This document shows positions 31,953 to 47,505 of a DNA stretch of 64,000 nucleotides, in pieces (the first letter of the stretch is position 1; each line of letters begins with the position of its first letter). The notes beneath the pieces were generated by a model that saw only the letters and a program-made list of their open reading frames with translations, did not search any database and was not told the DNA's origin. The position numbers and the translations under genes are program-made. This stretch comes from Naegleria gruberi (taxonomy: Eukaryota), in NCBI GenBank assembly GCA_000004985.1, contig GG738847.1; one strand, given 5' to 3'.

Positions 31953-34900
31953 ATGTTGTTAAACTCCTCACCTAAAAAGATGAGGAAGAAAAAAGTAAAG
32001 GAGAAAAAGTCAAGTGGAGGTGAGACAAAAACGAAAAAGAAATCCATACCTGTTTCTTCCTCTCTTGAAAAATTAAGCATCACAAGTAATGCAAAAGAAA
32101 ATGTAAATAATTCAACATCTAAAAAAACACAAAATGTGGATCCAATCACTATTCCAATCACTCCTCCGAAAAAAAGAATAGTAAGCTCAACAAACTTTCA
32201 ATAGTATTGACAAATCTTCATTGATTTCTCCAAGAAATTCAGGAAGATCTTCTTCAACTGGAAAACGAGTACCTACTACTGCTGTAATTAAGAGAGAGGA
32301 GCAACCTCAACCTCCAATTGCTAGAGCCATTAGACCTTCTACATCTCAATCCTTATCAAAAAGTCCATTCGCTAAGCAAGCCAGTATGAGCGGATTAAAG
32401 TTTCCAAGACAATCGGAGGAATCTTTTGCCACAAGCTCTTCTCGAAAAAGCTCATCAGATGAAAGCTCTTCCGAAGTGGAATCAGAAATGGAAAAACAAC
32501 CAGAAAAACTAATAGAAAAACCAGTGGAGAAACCTATTGAAAAACCTCCAACACCAATTGTACAGGAAAATTATGTTTCATTGTTCCAAAATACTGAAGC
32601 GCTTAATCGTGTCTTTGCAAAGAGCAAGGAAGTCTCACAAATTCCTGATTTTTGGTTTTACACACCAACCTTTATACCGATGACTCAGTGGGAACAGCCT
32701 AACACTTCAAAGTTCAATTGTCCAAATTATGGGACTTTGGACACTTTGAGCTTTAATACTTTAACTAGTAGCTATAATTCAATAAGGCAAAATTGCCCTT
32801 TAGTGGTTTTGGAAAAGAAGAAATTTTGTAATCCTGTACCATTTATTGATTCATTTAACAAATATTATGGAGAAAAATATAAGACCATGTTGGCCGAAAA
32901 CATGAGACAAGAAGTTAGACAGCGAGAGTTTGAGGTTGATAAAGTGCTCAACTATTTGAAGCACAAACGAGAAAAGGAAGGTTCAAGAACATCCAATAAT
33001 GAGGGGAAACACAAATCTAAAACATCTAAGGCCTTTTCCCTTGTAACACATGGAAAACCATCATCTGATACATCCAAGAAAGCAAAAATTAAGGTGGATC
33101 CAAAAAAGAAACTTAAACCAAAAGCAAAACCTGAAGTTGAAAAGAAGCAACCTACCCTTTTCGAAACAGTTAAACCTTCATCTAAATCCGAAAAGAAACC
33201 ATTTGATGTGGAACAGATTCCAACCTCTGACAAGCTGAAGAGCTCGTCTGATTTAAACAATGCTCCTGCTATTACATCTCGTTCATCTTCAAAGAGATCA
33301 ATTTCAAGAGCAGATTCCCCTATCACTACTACCAATTCCAGACCTGTTTCTCGAACTGGACAACTTAATGATGCTCCAAAGAGAGAAACGCCTGATCCAA
33401 GAGTGAACAAGTCTCGATCTCTTACCTCTTCCCCTGTATTTCAATTCGAACCAAGTTATGTTATGGATGTTAAGAAACCAGTTGATGTGAAAATATCAGA
33501 ATCCAGAACAGCCATAATATCCCTACTTGCAGACAGCTCTAACACCGACTTTGTAAAAACAATGAATCATCTAGGACCACTGCTGGAAGAAACAGTACAA
33601 AAGAAGGAAGAAGAATTAGAAAATATTTCCGCCCTCTACGCTTTGATGAAATCTATGGAAAAAAAGAATGTGGAACAATATAGAAGTATATGTCAGGCTA
33701 TTCTATCCAACAATATTTTCTTGGACTATTTAAAAGCAACAATAACCAATATTTCTTTGAACTTTCCAGAAGTATTCCAATTTATAATGAAAATTGTAAG
33801 AAAGCTTTGTGAATATTCGTTCCAAATTTTGGGGCAATCATCAGTAACTGGAATTCACCATCTCTTGAAATTCATCAAGATTTCTGTCATTAATAATAGA
33901 TTGCAAGAATTGGGATTTTCTGACTGTATCATTGAAAAAATGGATGCCCTTAATGATCACCTCAAACAATTGCAGGATGACTCAAGCCCTGTCCAACCAA
34001 ACGAAAACTCTTCCTCTCCAGACCATGTTCCTGAAAAAGCTATATATAATATTATGAGGGATATGTTCCATTCTGTGACATGTATATCCTTCTGTAGCAC
34101 AGAGGTGAGGACGAAGCTCCTCATGAATACTCCATTTTTTGGAATTACCTCAAGTATTTTCAAGATGAAAAGAGCTCCAATTTTGAAAACAAATGTCTTA
34201 CTGTGTTTGGAAAAAATAATTTTATCGGGTACCAGATGCAATGATAATGAGGAATATCATGACGATAGCACAACAAGTATTCTTTTGGATATGGGATTAA
34301 TGAGCCTAATTATTGCAGATTACAACTCTTTGACCATCAAGGTGAGAAAAAGCTCAAACCAAAAGAAAAAGAAGCAAGCTATCAGTTTAAAACAGGCGTT
34401 ATATCAGTTGATCAGAGCCCTCTCGTTTCATGAAAAAGCGAGAGAAGAAATGTACAAAACAGGTTTTTTCCATAATTTACTATCTGTTATGAAAGAGCTA
34501 GGAGCCAATGGAGAGGAATTTGTTGAGGAAGATGTCAATACCCTAAAGGGGTTGATTCTTGAAGCCATTTCAAATTTTGTTCCCTCTTCAAGTATTCACA
34601 GGGATAGTTTAATTCTGAAATATATTTTCGATACTGTTGTTGAAATGTTCATTTCAGTGCCTGTAACTGCAACCACTAACCTTTTACTCGAGACAAGAAC
34701 ACTACACATTCTTTCACAACTTAGCGACTATACAAGAACCCACCAAATTATTTATGAAGCTAGAGTAGTAGAGCATGCTTTTAATCTCCTTCAAAGGGAT
34801 CTCAATCAACAGCAGGTCCCTCCAGATCAGGGAGCCTTTGTTTTTTCAATGACTTCCTCAACATTCCTTAGCATGCTTCTAATGAGCAACCTCAGTAAAT

Positions 34901-35748
34901 ACAAGGAAGGACAGCGGCATATTTATGATAACGGTCTCAATCCAATAATACGATTACTTAAACTGTCTTCCTCCATATCAGAGTACAAGTCAAAATTAGA
35001 GGCTGCCAAAACAGAAATGAATATTATATTTACTCCTTTTGCTATGAGTTTTGATGAATATGAGCTTTTACCTAAAGTAATTAGCAGAACATTGGCAAAT
35101 ATAAGCACACTTCCAGAAAGTCATTTTACTTTTTTCAAAGAAATATTTCTGGATTCATTGGCATCAATGATTTTATGCATGAATGGTGAGAGGACTGTAA
35201 TATGGAACTGTCTTTGTACACTCTCTAACCTTTGTGAAGCTGATACTATGCTCCAACGAAAGCTTATTTCAAAGAGTGCAATAAGAGACTGTTTGTTAAA
35301 ATATTTATTAGAGAATGATCACAAACTTCAAAGTAGATCCATTCGGTGTATATCAAAGCTGGCTAGAAATGAATCAATTTTGACTCAGATTCATGACACG
35401 TTCAAGATTTCAAATATTGTTCGGGCTATGGAAACCAATTCGATGGATGAATGTAAATTGGATGGTTTAAGGATTTTATTCCATTTTTCTCAATTTGAAC
35501 AGTTTCATCCATCTTTCCTCAAGTCTGGAGCAATTGAATTTATGGTCAAAATAACTCATTCATCAGTAGAAAGTATTGTTGTTGAAAGTTTGAAGAATTT
35601 ATTGAATCTAATATTTGCTAATGACAAGAGCATTAAGGATACTTTGATACAGGCAGGCACAGTAGATCGCCTTTGGGAATTAAAGAAATGTGAGAAAAGC
35701 TCTGAAAAGGTGAGAAGATTATGTCTAAGTGCATTGAAAGCAATGTAA
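31953..35748 (+). CDS. Lys/Ser-rich low-complexity N-terminal region plus a C-terminal ARM-like helical repeat domain (~1250 aa). The two ORFs (31953-32204 and 32221-35748) are in different frames with no phase-compatible GT-AG intron.
   Basis: ORF A ends at TAG 32202-32204. ORF B is open from ~32189 and has no ATG for ~55 codons. Both parts are S/K/P-rich. A GTAAGC donor sits at 32181 but no in-phase acceptor follows. Confidence 0.45.
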
Positions 35749-35894
35749 TATGTAATAAATTGAGTATTCACTTTCATTGGTAATCATTTTCCGAATCAAC
35801 TTGTACAATAAAAGTTGGCGCCTAAAATTATTCAAATAAAACAACATTAAAAAAAACCTTAGCTTACCGAGTATAGATTACTTATCATCATCAA

Positions 35895-38800
35895 ATGTTA
35901 TCGGGATTTAAAACCTCAATAATTCATATCAACATTGTAACATTGTGTTTGTGTAGTATTACTCTTCTCTTCATATCAACTATATCGGGTGTGAGTTGTT
36001 CGTTATCAGAAGAGTTTGTTCCTGCACTAAAAAACCACAATTCAACTTCAATCCTTTATCAAAGCAAGTATGGCCACCTATCGGATAGATGCTACAATCA
36101 GTTCATCAAGAATTTCATATTCAATCAGACGATTCTTTCCTTTGATAGAAGGACTATGATACTTGGATGTTTCTCAGGAACTTTTGCAGAAATGAAATCA
36201 TGCCACGATAGAATGGAAACACAATTCAGAAAGAGTACTTTCAAAGAGTGCTCATATTCAGATCAGTGCTTACTATTTGGTGACAATCCTTCATTGGTTT
36301 TCAAAATGTATTCAGAACGGGCAAGAAGAAGTGGAAAAGATGAATACGCCACCTTACTTGGAACATTTCCTTCAAAATGCTCGCAAACCATTGTTGAATC
36401 ACTAATTGGAAGAGAGGCAATTATATTCTTCTTTAAACAATCAAATGTGAGCGTTGAACTCACAAAAGAGCTTGTAAGGGGGTTCTTTAAGGAAAACCTC
36501 CAAAATCAATGCGGAAATTACACTGAAAATGCTTTAGAAGCATTAAGAATATTTGTACAGGAGATGCCAAAAGGAATGTTCAATTTTCTTTCCTTTTTAG
36601 AGTTTCAAGAAAGGGTCGAAAAGGATACAGTTTCCTTTCGGTTATTGTTTGATTTATCGATACTCATATCTCTTATCATTAGCACTCTTGTCGTAATAAG
36701 CAGAAAATCTAACAATACCAATCCTGTCTCAAACTCCCAGCCACAATCACAGAAAATGTTCCAACTTGTGAAAAATATATTCTTAAAACTGGACAATCAT
36801 AATCAGAACATTTTGCAAGCAGAATCTTTGATTAAAGCTAGAATAGAAAAAAGTGAAAAGCTTAAATTAGCCATCAATGATCAAGAGAATAGAATATCTG
36901 AATTGACCAATAACTTCAATAGGATGCTAAATGGCTCAAAAGCAAAAGATAATACAATCGCTAAAACAATGGAATTACTGAATGAAATCAAAGATGCAAT
37001 TCAATCCGAAAAAGGTAGAGAACCATTAGATGTATTTAATATGCCCTATTATTTGAAGCAATTGTTTAAAGAGAAATCCGAATCTGAAACTGCTTGTAAG
37101 GAGAAGAATGTTAAGGTTCTCGCAGAGAAAAAACAGCTTGAAGCGTTGAACAAGGAACTAAAGGATAGAATTGAGTTTATTGTTTCAGACAATGAGGATT
37201 TAGGATTAAAAGTAGGTCTACTTGAAGAATCATTGGGCAATCAGAAGTCAATTACTCATTCATTGGAAGACTCTGTGCTAAGCCAGTCTGAACAAATAAG
37301 CAAACTTCTTCACTCTTTGAAGATGAAAGAGGATCAGGAACAAAAAGTGGGAACAGAATTGGAAATTTCAAGAAATGACGTGAAGTTATTGGAGAAACAT
37401 CTGAATCAAACCTACTCTTATTTTGGGATTTTAGAAGAGAAGAATCCTGAATCAATACGTTCATTTGTTGAAAGTCTGAGAAATGAATCAGAAATTAAAA
37501 CAAGAGAAATTGAGAAACTCCAGGAACAAATAGCTAACATTGAAGAGATCTCAGACGAAAAAATTGCCAAGATACTAGAAATCGAGTCAAGAGTTACATC
37601 CTTGCAAGATGAAAATAACTCCCTGAGGTCTCAATTGCATATCGCAACAAAGAAGATCGAGTCAAAATATGAGAAAGCTTCCGATAATCATGAAATTCTT
37701 CTAAAAGATCTAGAAACTGTTAAAAGAGACCTCGAGAAAACGAAATTGGAGCTTGCTTAAAAATCAGATTTGCACAATTCTCTCCAGCTGGAAATTCAAC
37801 AAGCAAAAGAACAACAGAGCAGATATCAACAAAAAATTGCAGAAATAACTGAAATATCCGAAAATCATTTAAAAAAGATAGAATCAATTACGGATCAAAA
37901 TGATTTTATGGCAAAAACCATCGAATTGTTAAAAGAAGAATCCAAAGTGGAAGCAATTGGAAACAAGTGTGAACAATTGGAAAAAGACAATGCCCAAACA
38001 CTTATTGATCTGGCAAAAACAAGGTCAGAACTTTCTGCATTTAAACTAAAATATGAAGAGAGATGTAAAGTTTTAAGCAATGAAAGATCAATCATGGAAG
38101 AAAAGGTTAGAGATATTTCCCAAAAATATGAGAAACTGTGTGCAACAGTTTTAGAACGAAAGAAAGTTTTTGAGGAAGCAAAATCAATCATTGAGGAAAA
38201 ATCAAAGAGGGTGGAAGAGCTTTCTGTTATTGTTGAAACATTAAACGAGAGTATGGAGCAGAAGAATTGTGAACTTGTTTTGAAAGAAAAGAATATTGAG
38301 GAGCTAGTAGATATTGTAAACCAAATCAAGTCATGTTTCTCATCTGCACAGATTGAAGGTGACAATTCAATTACTTCTATTGTTAAAGAAATGATGGAAA
38401 AGCAACGAGAAACTGTAAATTGTTTGGAAGTGGAGGTAGAAGGGTTGAGAGGAACTCTGAGTAGTAAATCACAGATATTTGTTGATTATCAATACAAGAT
38501 TGATGAAATAACAGAAATATTAGAAGTTAGGTCAAAGAGAATAGATGAGTTAGATATTGAACTACAATTTCTTAAGAAGGAAAAAAGTAATTTAGAAAAT
38601 GAAATTATTGAGCTAAAGAAATTAATGGAAGAAAAGGAGGTAAAGTTGAAGGAACTAGCAGTTAGTTTGAAAAAGCTCGCTTTAGAAAAGCTTAGCAGTG
38701 AAACTTGTCTGAATGATGAAATAGAGAGTCTTTCTAATGAAAACCTATTGATGAAAGAGAAAATAGATAAGATGAATGAAGCCCTGTCAAAGAAAGTTAA

Positions 38801-39080
38801 CAAAATTGATGATGCCTATAACTATATTGAAGTTCTCAACTCTGAAAGTGAGAACCTGTGTTCTTTGAATAAGGCAATGGAAGATAAATATCTGAAAGTT
38901 CTATTTGAAAAGAAACAATTCAATGAACAAAAGGACAAGTATGAAAGAATTATCGAAGCATTAAAATCACAAAACGAAAAATTACTTGATGAATTGAACA
39001 ATCAACAAATGATCCTACTCAAAATGGAAAAATCAAATAAGAATGCATTCGAAAAGGAATCCAAAAACCAAACAAAATAA
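35895..39080 (+). CDS. Membrane-anchored long coiled-coil protein (signal/TM - Cys-containing lumenal domain - TM - ~800 aa coiled coil). The reading frame is interrupted by an in-frame TAA at 37758-37760.
   Basis: ORFs 35895..37760 and 37770..39080 are in the same frame and separated only by TAA plus 3 sense codons (…TKLELA*KSDLHNSLQLEIQQAKEQ…). Heptad-rich K/E/L composition runs throughout both parts. No convincing intron spans the stop; the only GT upstream is a weak GTTAAA. Confidence 0.5.
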
Positions 39081-39180: not shown

Positions 39181-41260
39181 TTAATAATAATCATGATAAT
39201 CTCTAATTTGACCATTCCAAAAAGAGCACAAATCTCTAAAATCCTCTTGAGTGGCAAACATCTGAGCTCCCCTAAATCCCTCGTTCGAATCAGTAGAATG
39301 AACAATAGTTACATTCGGTAAAATTTTAGAAACTTCTTCAGCCCATCCATTTTCTGATCCTACCAATATTACATTTTTTACCTGTTCAATAACATCCATC
39401 CTCTTGGCCCTCAATACTTCTTTTAATCCTTTTTTGAACTCCTTTTCTATTGTCCTGTTTGAATCCACTTCATAAATGTCTCCAGCAAATGAGAAGAAAT
39501 TCAAAACCACACTGATGGTAATTGTGTTTACATCCTTCTCTATTACTATACAATGACTAATACTGTGATAGTATGCTATCATAGTATGTCTTGAAAGTAA
39601 ACAAACTGCAGGAACTTGCGTTTTCAATACCAAATCAATAAAATTGCTCAATTTTTTCATTTTCAGATATTTTGGAGGGATTGAGATTAATAATGGATGG
39701 CTTGGTGTGAAATTAATTTCTTCACAAACTTTGGAGAAAAATGTTCCAATGTTCATGGCTGTTACACGATAATCTTCTGCAGTTAAATAATCAAATACAT
39801 TTCTCTGGTCAGAACCCCTTCTACCAAGCATGGCATCTGAATAGCTGTAAAAGTTAAAGCTATTAAGGTATTGAGATATTGAGAAATTTCAACTCGTATA
39901 ATACTTACTGGCCTCCTGTATATCTACCCACATAGGGCTCAGTCGTTTTTGGAGTTTCATCACTGAAAAATCCAAAAGTTGCAACCTCACTGGTTATATC
40001 AATACAGATAGGTTTAAAATTGCGTTCAGTGAAATTTCTAACTCTAGCAGCATGATACCAATCTGTGAGTGGTTCTTTTTCACATAATTTAAGATAGGTA
40101 TTTCCATTCCAATATTTCTTGTACACTGCTTTCCATAAAATGGGCGATCTTGCAAGATGATTCAAATATCTACTCAATTGCAAACCAACAGAACATATTT
40201 CACTCTCTGAAAGAAAAGTGAATATGTTTAAAATAATCTCCTCTGGTAGAACTGTCAGATTATCATTCTTGTCGTTTTCAACTGGACCTTCCAATATACA
40301 GTATTGCCTATTTAACAAATATTCAAAGGTTTTACCACTCTTCACAAGCAGCCTCTGCCCAGCAAAATACTTTTCTGAAGATCCATAAACATCCCCACTC
40401 TTTTCAAGAGTTTCACTTTCCTTAAAAGCTTGCCCAATTTGTTGGTAAGTTTCTGATTGTTCAAAATTGTTATCTCTTGGAATTGAATTATTATCCACTC
40501 TGAGATACATAATTTCAGTTCTTAAAATATACTTGATTCCACTAATTACAGAACATCCTTCATGATAAAAATCTTGATTAAATAGAGCCAATTTACCAAC
40601 TGAAGGTTTCAAAGTATGATGAAGGTTGAAAGTATCGTCGTTTGGATCAGAGAAGAATTTGGTTTCTCCACCATTGAAATCCTGATTCAAATAGATCAGT
40701 AATGTGTAAATACTTCTCTCATTTTCACTTCTTCTAAACTGACCGTCGGTATGAATTTTGAAATATTCTCCCTTTTCATACTTGCTAAATCTCATACATT
40801 CATTAACTCCACAAGCTACCCATCTTCCTCTGCTGTCCAACCCATACGGGGCAATTGATTTTCCAATCTGATCTAGATCAATCTTGTTCTTTAGTCTATT
40901 AAATATCAAATCGGCCAACTTGTTATCTGTAACCAGTTCTCTCATGGCATTTCTGTGTTCCTTTGGATATTCATCTTCAAGAGATTGAAAATTGGAACAC
41001 TTTTTAATCAAATCTCTGCATTCATCATCGGAAAAGAAATTCGGAATGACCATCAATCTATTCAATGAATCTTCATAGAAAGGACCGGAAATCTCTAAAG
41101 GCTTCAATTCAAATGACTGTCTATCGTAGGAAAACATTTGCCTGACTTTAATAGAATCATCCGGTTCAATCACTGAATATTTAGATTTAATTCGTTGTTG
41201 TTGGAGATGGTCATTGTTATCATTTCTGGAAGAACTTGAAGCACTGTGTTTATTACCCAT
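39181..41260 (-). CDS. Multidomain protein of ~673 aa: N-terminal MGNKHS (myristoylation consensus) - 2OG-Fe(II) prolyl-4-hydroxylase-like domain - F-box - uncharacterised C-terminal domain. 2 exons: 39909-41260 and 39181-39844, with a 64-nt GTAAGT…TTTTACAG intron.
   Basis: P4H-type motifs are HTDGQF…RSIYTLLIYLNQDFNGGETKFF…FYHEG (HxD…H facial triad). The F-box is LPEEIILNIFTFLSESEICSVGLQLSRYLNHLARSPILWK. The junction …GRYTGG(H)|YSDAMLGRRG… is in phase, with the split codon CA|C. Confidence 0.6.
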
Positions 41261-41660: not shown

Positions 41661-41984
41661 TTATTTAAGATAATCTTCAAAAATAGAATTGAAAATCTCA
41701 TCCTCATTATGAATTGTTTCCGTGACTGAATATTTTACAGGTGATGATGAAAGATCAATTATTGGTGTAATAGTATTACTACTTGATTGATTAGAAGCCA
41801 ATTCTTTTGGATGATGACCACTCTCCAATTCTTCTTTATTTTCCTCCATCAAATATTCTGTAAAATTTGTTGTATGAAAAGGAAAAACACAATTTTCATT
41901 CGGACACATCAGGAATGAGTGTGTCGAGTCGAGATCATATCTAAATTTTCTAAGAGGTTGACCACATTCTCCACAAATTAGCAT
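41661..41984 (-). CDS. Small C4 zinc-ribbon protein (107 aa) with an acidic tail and a SIM-like hydrophobic patch (IIDLSS).
   Basis: CGECG…17 aa…CPNENC arrangement. ATG at 41982-41984. Confidence 0.3.
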   Translation of the reverse strand: MLICGECGQPLRKFRYDLDSTHSFLMCPNENCVFPFHTTNFTEYLMEENKEELESGHHPKELASNQSSSNTITPIIDLSSSPVKYSVTETIHNEDEIFNSIFEDYLK

Positions 41985-44522: not shown

Positions 44523-47505
44523 ATGAGCAGTGGTGGTGGACATGTTTCATTCTCTAACCAGCAGCAACCAGCAAATAATCAACATCAGCAACAATATCTT
44601 GCCAACTCCTTTTCGTCAACAATAACACCAAATAATAACAATAACTATGGCAATCAAGGAAATAGAACCATGTTCGGAAATGGATTGAGTGGTGCTGTAT
44701 CAACTTCATCACCAAATGCGTCCAAACCACTTCCTACTCTTCCTCTTTCCCAACAACAACAACAACACACAACAACACATTCCAAATAATAGAGCAAGCA
44801 TGTCCTTCTTCAATCCGCAACCTACCCCTCCTTTTAATCAACAATCAAATATTTTAGATAGTAGTGGTGGTTCTCAATTTCCTCCACCTCTTAAACAACA
44901 ATCATCCCTCAATAACTTAATGTATCAACAACCTGCAAATACTCAGCAACAACAATGGAATAATCAAAATTCTGAAATGTTTTATAGTAATTCTCTAAAT
45001 TCAATGATTAATAATAATTTGAATGATCAACAGTTTGTTCCAGTAACTGCCATGCCTAATTCATCAAATAATTTCAATAACAAAAATGTTCCGAGTGTAG
45101 CCCAAAGTTTTGATTTTTCAGTGGAGAAAAAGAGATCAAAGAGTGTCAGTTTTGGACGATCAAGTCCACTATTATCGGATGAAGAACCAATAGTCAACAC
45201 AAATGAAACACAAACAGCCAAGCCAATTCCTCAAGTAGTTGAACATACCAAAACTGTTTCATTCTTCGAGTCACCTATTTATTCCACTATGGCAGAGGAT
45301 GATATGAGAGACGATGCATTTCCTGCTATTACTTTTGATATTCCTGTACGTTCTGGAGAAACGAGAGATTTTTCAAATGTTTTTGAAAGATGGCAAAATA
45401 TGGGATTGGGAAGTAATGATATGCGTCATTCGTTTGTTGCCACAACATCGAGCCACAACTTTGGATTTGAGGATGATTTTGGTACATCCAACAAACCAAC
45501 TGAATCAATCCTTAACAAGGGTACTGCCAATACTACTGTAATATATCCAAATCCAAATGCACCAACACCATCAGAGCTACAAAGTGATACCAGATCAGAA
45601 TTGTACAATCCAAATGCCATACCAACTCCAATAAGTGCTAATGATGATCAAGATGATGAGGATGAGTCAGAGGAAAACCAACAGGAATCATTTGATATGA
45701 TACAATTAGGACTATTGGATCCAAAAGAGTTAAAAATTCTATGTGAAAATATTTCTTCCATGCTCAACATTCTGTACAAGTATCTGGGAACAATACCAAC
45801 TGAATGTTCACTGGTTTTACTTGAAAAACATTGTGAATCAAACCTTAAAGATTTGAGCAAAATAACAAACAAGCATTCTGTTGAGACCTTGATATCACTA
45901 CTCATTTCCAGGTTAGATCTTCACAAAAATAAGGGATCCCTTTCAAAGTTGACATCTGTAGATTTTCTTGAACAACAAGTTAGAGAAATTGCTAGGACAA
46001 GTTTAATCAATCTCAGAGAAGATATGGAAGGATTTCAGAGAAGCAAAAGATCATCAACACCAAACGATTCAAGTGATGAGGTTAGTGTTGCTTCTAATAA
46101 CGAGCCAGAACTTCCAAATATACCAAGAAAAATGGTGGAGAAGAAGAAATTAATAGACAAGTTACTGAAACAAATCAGCAGTATTAACACACCACTCAAT
46201 GATAATGGAGATACTATCGTACATGCATGTTGTTGGTATGGATTGAAATCTGTTCTGGAATATGCACACAAGGTTAAAGGAGCCCTTTTATCTATCAGAA
46301 ACAAGGATGGAAAACTTCCATTAGAATACGCCATCAATCAACACAGAATTTCATCTACAGTCTACTTGATTGGTAATTCTATTGGCCATTCACTCCATTT
46401 ATTTGCAGATGGAAGACTGAGAGAAACCTTTAACAGAGATTTAATTTTGGAAGGAAAGAAAAAGAACCTTACAAAAGCTCTTCGCCAATGCATTTCTTCA
46501 TCCTCAAGGGTTAAACCAAATGTAAAGGATGAGTATGGTATGACACCTCTTCATTACTCTGTTCTACTGAGGTATGATTCAACTATCAAAAAACTATTAC
46601 AAATGTCCAATATACGAGTGAATGAAAGAGATAAGCTCAAGAGAACATGTCTTCATCTTGCTGCTATTTCCAATAATACTGAGGTGATAGATATGCTTTG
46701 TAAACGTGTTGATATTGATAGATTGGCCAGAGATGATATCGGAGATTCATTCCTTCATACATACATTAGATATATCTATGCTGAAGAAAATGGACCAAAA
46801 TATGAAAATCCAATTTTAGTAATGAACAAAATTCAATCCCAATTCAAGTGGTTCAGAAGCCCTATTGTTGATTGTGGGTTAATTCTTGCTCATGCCGGTT
46901 GTTTAGAAAAACTCAATCATTATCACGACTTTGTGATTTCATGTTGGAATCAAATTGTAAAATATGGATTATCAGATAGTTATATTATTGTAGAAAACAG
47001 TTTATTGGAGGGAATTGTTGACCCAGAAGTTGTAAAAACAGCAATTATTACATCATTTAAACAATTCATCATTCCACCAAAGAGAAATGACAAACGTCCG
47101 CTCAGACTTCAACTTGTGAATGTTGTCCATCAACAAGAGAAACAAAAGAAAGGATTATTCAGCTTTGGAAGAGAAACCAAATCATTATTGGGAATGAAAA
47201 ATAAGGAACAACCACCTGTCAACACACAACCACCACAAAATACTCCTCCTCAAGTCACTCAACAAATTATTGATGTTATGAGCAAAAAGATTTATAATTT
47301 CTCCATGATTGACTTTAAGGATTTACAATATCTTTTCACAGACAATCAAACTCACCCACAAGATTCTTACATTTCATGGATGGTCAACAATCAAAAACAA
47401 ACTCCACTATCATTGGCAATAGTATTAATTAGAGCTCTTGTTAAGGAAAAGAAAGTTCAAGCCAAATCAATTGTTACATTACCAATCAGAGCTTTTAAAA
47501 TTTAA
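44523..47505 (+). CDS. Prion-like Gln/Asn-rich protein with C-terminal ankyrin repeats (~1000 aa). The N-terminal ORF (44523-44789) and the main ORF (44689-47505) are in different frames overlapping across a (CAA)n tract.
   Basis: The 88-aa ORF (…LPLSQQQQQHTTTHSK*) ends at AAA-TAA 44784-44789. The 938-aa ORF continues in the +1 frame (…NNRASMSFFNPQ…). Ankyrin repeats follow (…GDTIVHACCWYGLKSVLEYA…, …GMTPLHYSVLLRYDSTIKKLL…, …RTCLHLAAISNNTEVIDML…). No GT-AG intron in the overlap. Alternatively the gene starts at the ATG at ~44800 and the upstream ORF is a uORF. Confidence 0.5.
44750..44768. repeat. (CAA)n trinucleotide repeat inside the Q/N-rich coding region.
   Basis: caacaacaacaacaacaac at the frame-transition point of the ankyrin gene. 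Confidence 0.6.

What the first reader, a model, noticed from the sequence alone, without database searches (positions are those of the whole stretch)
39181..41260. Single gene fusing a prolyl-4-hydroxylase-like 2OG oxygenase, an F-box and an uncharacterised C-terminal domain, with an N-myristoylation signal
The N-terminus MGNKHS fits the MGxxxS/T myristoylation consensus. The oxygenase domain has the HxD…H iron triad, the RxS-type 2OG-binding region and the P4H-type YLNxxxxGGETxF block. An F-box follows directly, then a ~220-aa domain with no recognisable motifs, joined by a verified in-phase 64-nt intron. In several protists, cytoplasmic P4H-type enzymes hydroxylate Skp1 of SCF ligases. An F-box protein that itself carries a P4H-like domain would be an oxygen-sensing module physically recruited to SCF, an architecture I do not recognise as described.
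Basis: partly seen in the sequence, partly recalled or inferred. Interest (0 to 1): 0.6.

Follow-up and report, generated by a model that had tools for sequence, protein, structure and literature searches.

The report
Oxygenase, F-box, actin-like fusion protein
This Naegleria gruberi gene encodes one 671-residue protein that joins a prolyl-hydroxylase-type oxygen-using enzyme, an F-box (the handle that plugs proteins into SCF ubiquitin ligases) and a stripped-down actin-like domain; the same three-part design, apparently undescribed, also occurs in slime moulds and chytrid fungi.

The parts
39181..41260 (-). Whole two-exon gene encoding a 671-aa protein. The public model XP_002682465.1 covers exon 1 only.
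39909..41260 (-). Exon 1 (residues 1-450 plus two bases of codon 451).
   Evidence: It is 100% identical to P0001.
39845..39908 (-). 64-nt phase-2 intron, GTAAGT...TTTTACAG. An in-frame TAA arises at the donor (CA|GTAAGT).
   Evidence: The same position and phase, with a 62-nt intron, occur in the related contig L001.
39181..39844 (-). Exon 2 (residues 451-671 plus the stop). It carries most of the actin-like domain.
   Evidence: tblastn to the C-termini of P0003, P0004 and P0007 gives E 1.3e-17, 6.6e-15 and 7e-7. dN 0.35 and dS about 1.3 against L001.
41243..41260 (-). N-terminal MGNKHS, a candidate N-myristoylation signal (Gly2 at 41257-41255).
   Evidence: Fits PS00008. It is kept in L001 (MGNKHAR) and in P0007 (MGNKSSK).
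40484..41065 (-). P4H-type 2OG/Fe(II) dioxygenase domain (residues ~66-259). Catalytic codons: H170 40753-40751, D172 40747-40745, H233 40564-40562, K243 40534-40532, R247 40522-40520.
40256..40477 (-). Conserved helical linker (residues 262-335) with the motif ESxxLEKxGDxxxxxxxYxxxQ. It looks like a TPR-like hairpin.
   Evidence: Conserved in alignments A1 and A5. It corresponds to helices 312-350 in the P0003 model. The TPR-like reading is inference.
40118..40252 (-). F-box (residues 337-381, VLPEEIILNIFTFLS...ILWKAVYK).
   Evidence: Pfam F-box-like at 36.4 bits. PDB phmmer hits to the F-boxes of FBXL5, FBXO4 and FBXW7.
39911..40063 (-). Actin-like domain, first part (residues 400-450). It contains the first strands of subdomain 1 and a degenerate phosphate-1 loop (DITSE in place of DNGSG).
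39184..39843 (-). Actin-like domain, second part (residues 452-671). It has HPLLISIPP, PAVCLL and NVILVGSE motifs. The phosphate-2 and adenosine motifs are degenerate and subdomain 4 is nearly absent.
   Evidence: The homologue model matches actin and Arps.

Best explanation
The locus encodes a tri-domain F-box protein of Naegleria gruberi. Its parts are an N-terminal, probably myristoylated, catalytically competent collagen-P4H-type 2OG/Fe(II) dioxygenase; a helical linker; an F-box; and a C-terminal degenerate actin-related (ARP) domain that has lost its nucleotide-binding motifs and most of subdomain 4. Shown here: the gene structure, the three domains, the conserved catalytic residues, purifying selection on both exons, and membership of a large family with the same domain order in Heterolobosea, Amoebozoa and chytrid fungi. 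Inferred: the F-box docks the protein on Skp1 in an SCF ubiquitin ligase. The ARP domain sits where F-box proteins carry their substrate-binding module, so it is taken to be the client-binding surface, most plausibly through the retained cleft between subdomains 1 and 3 that actin and Arps use to bind helices. The dioxygenase would then hydroxylate a residue, probably proline, of the captured client or a neighbouring subunit in an O2- and 2OG-dependent way. One polypeptide would thereby couple oxygen and metabolite status to ubiquitination or to its own turnover. Myristoylation would place this paralogue at a membrane.
Against: There are no transcript, protein, Skp1-binding, activity or substrate data. 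The structure model is of the N. lovaniensis homologue (33% identical), not of this protein, because the spliced sequence could not be submitted. The window protein's own C-terminal domain gets no Pfam Actin hit. For JcdI the F-box was dispensable for the O2 phenotype, so coupling of hydroxylation to ubiquitination of a client is not a given. Some family members have weak or undetected F-boxes (16 of 51). The myristoylation motif is absent from most family members.
Confidence: 0.45

Rival explanations
1. Regulated-enzyme model, as for JcdI. The protein is primarily a hydroxylase whose targets are chosen by the ARP domain. The F-box serves only to bind Skp1 for solubility or to have the enzyme itself ubiquitinated and degraded. 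It does not present clients to the SCF.
For: In Dictyostelium JcdI the O2-sensitising effect needed catalysis but not the F-box, and Skp1 association correlated with lower JcdI levels (PMC9485057). F-box detection is variable across the family while the oxygenase domain is universal.
Against: The F-box passes Pfam cut-offs in distant lineages, including chytrid, Physarum and Naegleria members. It is under purifying selection here (dN 0.19 against dS 0.93). The F-box-then-binding-domain order is the classic receptor layout.
Confidence: 0.25
2. The P4H-like domain hydroxylates Skp1 or another SCF subunit after being tethered to it by the F-box. This would be an in-complex version of the PhyA pathway.
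For: An F-box brings the catalytic domain close to Skp1. Skp1 prolyl hydroxylation exists in several protists (papers listed).
Confidence: 0.1
3. The annotated model is right and these are two genes. Exon 1 would be a complete 451-aa protein, and the 216-aa ORF (39831-39181) would be a separate gene or a relic.
For: The public annotation and the metagenome gene callers call them separately. The second ORF has its own ATG.
Against: The actin fold would be cut after its first strands. Full-length homologues are continuous across the junction. The intron has consensus splice sites and a conserved position and phase in L001. Only 73 nt separate the two ORFs.
Confidence: 0.04
4. The ARP domain is an actin mimic that joins or caps actin filaments or Arp-containing complexes. 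The enzyme would then hydroxylate actin-cytoskeleton proteins at the membrane, with ubiquitination secondary.
For: The fold is closest to eukaryotic actin, Arp4 and Arp3 rather than to MreB or Hsp70. Less degenerate relatives keep DxGS..TK and NxVLTGG motifs. There is a candidate myristoyl anchor. From my own knowledge, prolyl hydroxylation of non-muscle actin by PHD3 has been reported.
Against: In this protein the nucleotide motifs and subdomain 4 are lost, which argues against polymer-like contacts. There is no direct evidence.
Confidence: 0.15

Closest known systems
Dictyostelium JcdI/Fbxo13 (and, from my own knowledge, animal KDM2A/KDM2B)
   Same: An F-box protein that is itself a 2OG/Fe(II), O2-dependent dioxygenase. 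JcdI binds Skp1 through its F-box and is conserved across protists (PMC9485057).
   Different: Those oxygenases are JmjC-type, lie C-terminal to the F-box in JcdI, and have no actin-like domain. Here the oxygenase is P4H-type, lies N-terminal to the F-box, and an ARP domain follows.
Arabidopsis ARP8 / SUSA2 (At5g56180)
   Same: An F-box followed by an actin-related domain. It binds the Skp1 homologue ASK1 (PMC7562919).
   Different: From my own knowledge, it has no oxygenase domain. [quoted passage not shown] Common ancestry with this family was not tested.
Collagen-type prolyl 4-hydroxylases (B. anthracis P4H, PBCV-1 vCPH, Chlamydomonas P4H-1, human P4H-TM)
   Same: These are the best sequence and fold matches for the catalytic domain. 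They share the HxD...H triad and a Lys at +10.
   Different: Those enzymes are stand-alone, secretory or ER proteins acting on proline-rich repeats. This protein is predicted to be cytosolic or membrane-anchored and is fused to SCF and ARP modules. Its substrate is unknown.
Skp1 prolyl hydroxylase PhyA / animal PHD (EGLN)
   Same: A cytoplasmic 2OG prolyl-hydroxylase superfamily linked to SCF or VHL ubiquitin ligases and to oxygen sensing.
   Different: There is no significant sequence match to PHD-type chains. PhyA is a separate enzyme without an F-box.
Nuclear and orphan actin-related proteins (Arp4, Arp7, Arp8, BAF53)
   Different: Those keep four subdomains and usually bind nucleotide. This one lacks most of subdomain 4 and the phosphate-binding glycines.

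Membership tests
P4H-type 2OG/Fe(II) dioxygenase (Pfam PF13640, P4Hc) | Profile match above the curated cut-off | tested here: met
   46.9 bits against a cut-off of 27, E 5.5e-12. The family profile hits B. anthracis P4H at 2e-11.
P4H-type 2OG/Fe(II) dioxygenase (Pfam PF13640, P4Hc) | HxD...H iron triad | tested here: met
   H170, D172 and H233 are invariant in alignments A1 and A3 and nearly invariant in the 51-member A5.
P4H-type 2OG/Fe(II) dioxygenase (Pfam PF13640, P4Hc) | Basic residue binding the 2OG C5 carboxylate (Lys at +10 from the distal His in collagen-type P4Hs) | tested here: met
   K243 is invariant and aligns with Lys203 of chain 3itq. R247 is also invariant.
P4H-type 2OG/Fe(II) dioxygenase (Pfam PF13640, P4Hc) | Double-stranded beta-helix fold | tested here: met
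P4H-type 2OG/Fe(II) dioxygenase (Pfam PF13640, P4Hc) | Prolyl 4-hydroxylase activity on a defined substrate | not testable with these tools
   Needs a recombinant enzyme assay and mass spectrometry.
F-box protein / SCF substrate receptor | F-box motif above the curated cut-off | tested here: met
   F-box-like at 36.4 bits against 24.3. It aligns with the F-boxes of FBXL5, FBXO4 and FBXW7.
F-box protein / SCF substrate receptor | Binding to Skp1 and assembly into an SCF | not testable with these tools
   Needs co-IP or co-expression with N. gruberi Skp1.
Actin / actin-related protein superfamily | Pfam Actin (PF00022) match by the protein itself | tested here: not met
   No Pfam hit for the window C-terminal domain even at E<=10. 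Relatives do match: P0026 at 9e-36, P0036 at 8e-28, P0020 at 4e-10.
Actin / actin-related protein superfamily | Profile-level homology to actin | tested here: met
   Profile A2 against PDB: the top 60 hits are all actin or Arp4, with the best at 6.6e-7. hhalign gives 8e-6. An independent profile scores 156 bits on beta-actin and 50.5 bits on the window domain.
Actin / actin-related protein superfamily | Actin fold | tested here: met
Actin / actin-related protein superfamily | Nucleotide-binding motifs (phosphate-1 DNGSG, phosphate-2 DSGDG, adenosine GG) | tested here: not met
   The window protein has DITSE, EKDVN and VGSE at these positions. Several relatives retain DxGS and TGG.
Actin / actin-related protein superfamily | Four subdomains | tested here: not met
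   About 270 aa against 375 in actin. Alignments skip roughly actin residues 160-285, and only short helices replace subdomain 4.
Skp1 prolyl hydroxylase PhyA / PHD-EGLN type | Closest sequence relatives are PHD-type enzymes | tested here: not met
   No PHD2 or PhyA chain among PDB profile hits at E<=1. All significant hits are collagen-type P4Hs.
Skp1 prolyl hydroxylase PhyA / PHD-EGLN type | Hydroxylates the conserved Skp1 proline | not testable with these tools
Plant ARP8/SUSA2-type F-box-ARP proteins | F-box immediately N-terminal to an actin-related domain | tested here: met
   The domain order here is F-box at 337-381 and ARP at ~400-671. ARP8 is described in PMC7562919.
Plant ARP8/SUSA2-type F-box-ARP proteins | Orthology (shared ancestry of the F-box-ARP module) | not tested
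The last homology search returned only the query itself and an Arp-T3.
N-myristoylated proteins | Met-Gly start fitting G-{EDRKHPFYW}-x(2)-[STAGCN]-{P} | tested here: met
   MGNKHSA fits the pattern. The orthologue has MGNKHAR. Eight of the 160 retrieved sequences fit.
N-myristoylated proteins | Actual myristate attachment | not testable with these tools
   Needs metabolic labelling or mass spectrometry.

The most novel reading that the evidence does not exclude
An ancient eukaryotic family, found in Discoba, Amoebozoa and Fungi, forms a single-polypeptide 'hydroxylate-and-ubiquitinate' module. An ARP-fold receptor captures a client, possibly an actin-cytoskeleton or Arp-binding protein. A built-in P4H-type dioxygenase marks the client in an O2- and 2OG-dependent way, and the F-box delivers it to the SCF. 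On this reading, plant ARP8/SUSA2, currently thought to be plant-specific, would be a derivative of this family that lost the oxygenase.
Probability: 0.2. Interest if true: 0.8.

Novelty: new variant of a known kind. Interest (0 to 1): 0.6.

Why it matters
Oxygen sensing through prolyl hydroxylation normally needs two proteins: a hydroxylase (PHD or PhyA) and a ubiquitin-ligase component that reads or carries the mark (VHL or Skp1). Here both activities, plus a probable client-binding actin-like module, sit in one chain. That chain is conserved across three eukaryotic supergroups, so it is a tractable candidate for a third, independent oxygen-to-proteolysis route. It would also broaden the known uses of the actin fold to include an SCF substrate receptor outside plants. 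It contradicts the published view that F-box + actin proteins are plant-only. On the practical side, the N. gruberi reference models XP_002682465.1 and probably XP_002682240.1 are truncated at a conserved short intron and should be corrected.

Tried and rejected
I used the N. lovaniensis homologue P0003 instead.
2. A 51-sequence alignment fixed this.
3. The search for homologous proteins with the C-terminal alignment A2 and with the Physarum F-box + actin region returned almost nothing useful. The relation to plant ARP8 and the wider taxonomy therefore could not be pursued that way.
4. The afdb50 fold library was unavailable.
5. The locus of the N. gruberi paralogue P0006 was not on record.
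6. Direct BLASTP of the window C-terminal domain against human beta-actin was only suggestive (E 0.3, collinear over actin residues 4-154). Profiles were needed.
7. NCBIfam gave only sub-threshold bacterial PKHD-type hits.
8. Six of my eight paper searches targeted this architecture or these accessions and found nothing describing it. The other two returned the Skp1/PhyA and ARP8 precedents.
9. I considered and rejected the two-gene reading, a PhyA-type identity for the oxygenase, and a pseudo-enzyme reading. The catalytic residues are invariant.

Full report
**Gene structure.** The finding lies on the minus strand. The ORF table shows a 451-aa ORF (41260-39905) and a 216-aa ORF (39831-39181). 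Reading the minus strand shows ...GGAGGCCA|GTAAGT...TTTTACAG|CTATTCAGATGCC.... Removing 39908-39845 (64 nt) joins the two ORFs in frame. The junction is phase 2 and creates His451. The result is a 2016-nt CDS encoding 671 aa, and the intron has stops in the continuing frame.

**Organism and existing annotation.** A homology search identifies the organism as Naegleria gruberi. The public model XP_002682465.1 / D2V0H5 ("P4Hc domain-containing protein", 451 aa) equals exon 1 only.

**Support for the two-exon model.** Four lines of evidence agree.
- A metagenomic contig from a related Naegleria (L001) has an intron at the same codon and phase. It is 62 nt with the same GTAAGT/TTTTTACAG ends. Its spliced product is 654 aa, with 67% identity in exon 1 and 56% in exon 2.
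- Nei-Gojobori estimates against L001 give dN 0.35 and dS about 1.3 for exon 2, so it is a coding sequence under purifying selection. Exon-1 segments have dN of about 0.19-0.20.
- Exon 2 aligns by tblastn with the C-termini of full-length homologues at E 1.3e-17, 6.6e-15 and 7e-7.
- The N. lovaniensis and N. fowleri homologues read GGHY(S) or GGH straight across the junction.

No transcript data were available. The ENA relative P0005 stops at the same point, and the paralogue XP_002682240.1 (P0006) stops a few residues further on. This suggests the same intron was mishandled by gene callers. That point is inference.

**Oxygenase domain.** Pfam gives 2OG-FeII_Oxy_3 at residues 156-245 (E 5.5e-12). 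Pox_C4_C10 also passes its cut-off. A profile of eight family oxygenase domains hits only P4H-type structures significantly:
- Bacillus anthracis P4H at 2e-11
- PBCV-1 vCPH at 7.5e-6
- P4H-TM at 1.4e-5
- Chlamydomonas P4H at 2.7e-5

No PHD2 or PhyA-type chain appears at E<=1. H170, D172, H233, K243 and R247 are invariant and remain nearly invariant across 51 diverse members. K243 lies +10 from the distal His and aligns with Lys203 of 3itq. This is the collagen-P4H arrangement rather than an RxS motif. The enzyme therefore looks catalytically competent. It is P4H-like but not of the Skp1-hydroxylase (PHD) class.

**F-box.** F-box-like matches residues 337-381 at E 4.5e-9 and aligns with the F-boxes of FBXL5, FBXO4 and FBXW7. 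It is separated from the oxygenase by a conserved helical linker of about 75 aa.

**C-terminal domain.**
- The window domain alone gets no Pfam hit, and BLASTP to beta-actin is only suggestive (E 0.3, collinear over actin 4-154).
- A 5-sequence profile of the domain hits actins and Arp4 exclusively. All of the top 60 are actin or Arp4, and the best E is 6.6e-7, with profile positions 15-163 matching actin 5-158. hhalign gives E 8e-6.
- Relatives match Pfam Actin far above cut-off, up to 9e-36. Several match human beta-actin directly by phmmer, down to 2.6e-19.
- A profile built from 18 other members, excluding this protein, its orthologue and P0003/P0004, scores 156 bits on beta-actin (residues 2-372) and 50.5 bits on the window domain.
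- An AlphaFold2 model of the N. lovaniensis homologue P0003 with a 51-sequence alignment is confident (pLDDT 84, pTM 0.80). P0003 and P0004 together form the sister group of the window protein and its L001 orthologue in an NJ tree of the oxygenase domain.
- Foldseek places the model on Arp3 and actin at E 5e-14.

Motif comparison shows that many relatives keep DxGS..TK, HPxLL, NxVLTGG and GG..AS. The window protein has DITSE, EKDVN and VGSE instead, and lacks most of subdomain 4. I read it as a degenerate ARP used as a binding module that probably does not bind nucleotide.

**Distribution.** An exhaustive HMM search of 1.84 billion representatives found 10102 hits at E<=0.001 and 1151 at E<=1e-30. 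Many proteins of 600-1000 aa were covered across all three domains in a single stretch. Of 51 members scanned with Pfam, 51 have the oxygenase domain, 35 have F-box-like and 26 have Actin. A few carry extra WW, ankyrin, WWE or Macro domains.

Exact look-ups name the following sources, all annotated as hypothetical or merely "F-box domain-containing":
- Willaertia magna
- several Naegleria lovaniensis paralogues
- the chytrids Nowakowskiella sp. JEL0407 and Rhizophlyctis rosea
- Physarum polycephalum (two proteins)
- Dracoamoeba

All three domains pass Pfam cut-offs in proteins from Nowakowskiella, Physarum and N. lovaniensis.

**Literature.** Six of my eight paper searches targeted this architecture or these accessions, and none found a description of them. 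The other two returned the Skp1/PhyA and ARP8 precedents. Two precedents are relevant. Dictyostelium JcdI/Fbxo13 is an F-box protein with a JmjC dioxygenase domain. It binds Skp1 and has a Km(O2) of about 22% (PMC9485057). Arabidopsis ARP8/SUSA2 is an F-box + actin protein that binds ASK1, and its authors state that the combination is confined to plants (PMC7562919). The present family contradicts that statement. Whether ARP8 descends from this family was not tested.

**Mechanism (inferred).** The layout has a catalytic domain, then an F-box, then a binding domain. It resembles KDM2-type F-box proteins (from my own knowledge) and the classic F-box receptor plan. I therefore favour an SCF substrate receptor whose ARP domain captures a client and whose P4H domain hydroxylates it, or a neighbouring subunit, in an O2- and 2OG-dependent way. 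The MGNKHS start fits PS00008, is kept in the orthologue, and recurs in a handful of relatives. It may anchor this paralogue to membranes.

The JcdI-like alternative, in which the F-box only regulates the enzyme, is a serious rival. Tethered Skp1 hydroxylation is less likely, given the enzyme class and the unexplained ARP domain. The two-gene reading is very unlikely.

**Verdict.** The locus is a diverged member of a large, widely distributed family combining a P4H-type oxygenase, an F-box and an ARP domain, which appears to be undescribed. I class it as a new variant of known kinds (oxygenase-bearing F-box proteins and F-box-ARP proteins) and of moderate-to-good interest. The function remains to be tested.

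Noticed in passing
window 32221-39080 (+): Three consecutive long ORFs (1175, 621 and 436 aa) separated by very short gaps. The last is rich in E/K/L and looks coiled-coil by eye; the others were not inspected. The first has a weak ARM_ARMC5-like match (33.8 bits, below the cut-off). They are probably one very large gene split by short introns, converging on the 3' end of the gene studied here.
   Followed up: partly
window 41661-41984 (-): A 107-aa ORF directly upstream of the gene. Its N-terminus is Cys-rich (CGECG...CPNENC) and resembles a zinc ribbon. It has no Pfam match.
   Followed up: partly
window 44689-47505 (+): A 938-aa ORF with ankyrin repeats (Ank_2, E 1.1e-15).
   Followed up: partly
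N. gruberi paralogue P0006 (XP_002682240.1) and ENA protein P0005, outside the window: Both models end just after the first strands of the actin-like domain. That is at (P0005) or a few residues beyond (P0006) the point where the truncated model of this gene ends. P0005 ends in ...RQ, as expected for CA|GTAAGT. The same conserved intron has probably truncated several public models of this family.
   Followed up: partly
window 40484-41065 (-), oxygenase domain: Pfam Pox_C4_C10 (poxvirus C4/C10 proteins) passes its curated cut-off on the oxygenase domain (31.2 against 25 bits) and recurs in 13 of 51 family members. This points to a shared P4H-like core with those viral proteins.
   Followed up: no
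L001 4007-4642 (-): The related Naegleria contig carries a glutathione S-transferase gene downstream of the orthologue, whereas the window has the large E/K/L-rich gene there. Local synteny therefore differs.
   Followed up: no
family members P0011-P0155: Some relatives add WW (5 members), ankyrin (3), WWE (2), Rhodanese (2) or Macro (1) domains to the oxygenase-ARP core. WWE and Macro hint at links to ADP-ribose signalling.
   Followed up: no
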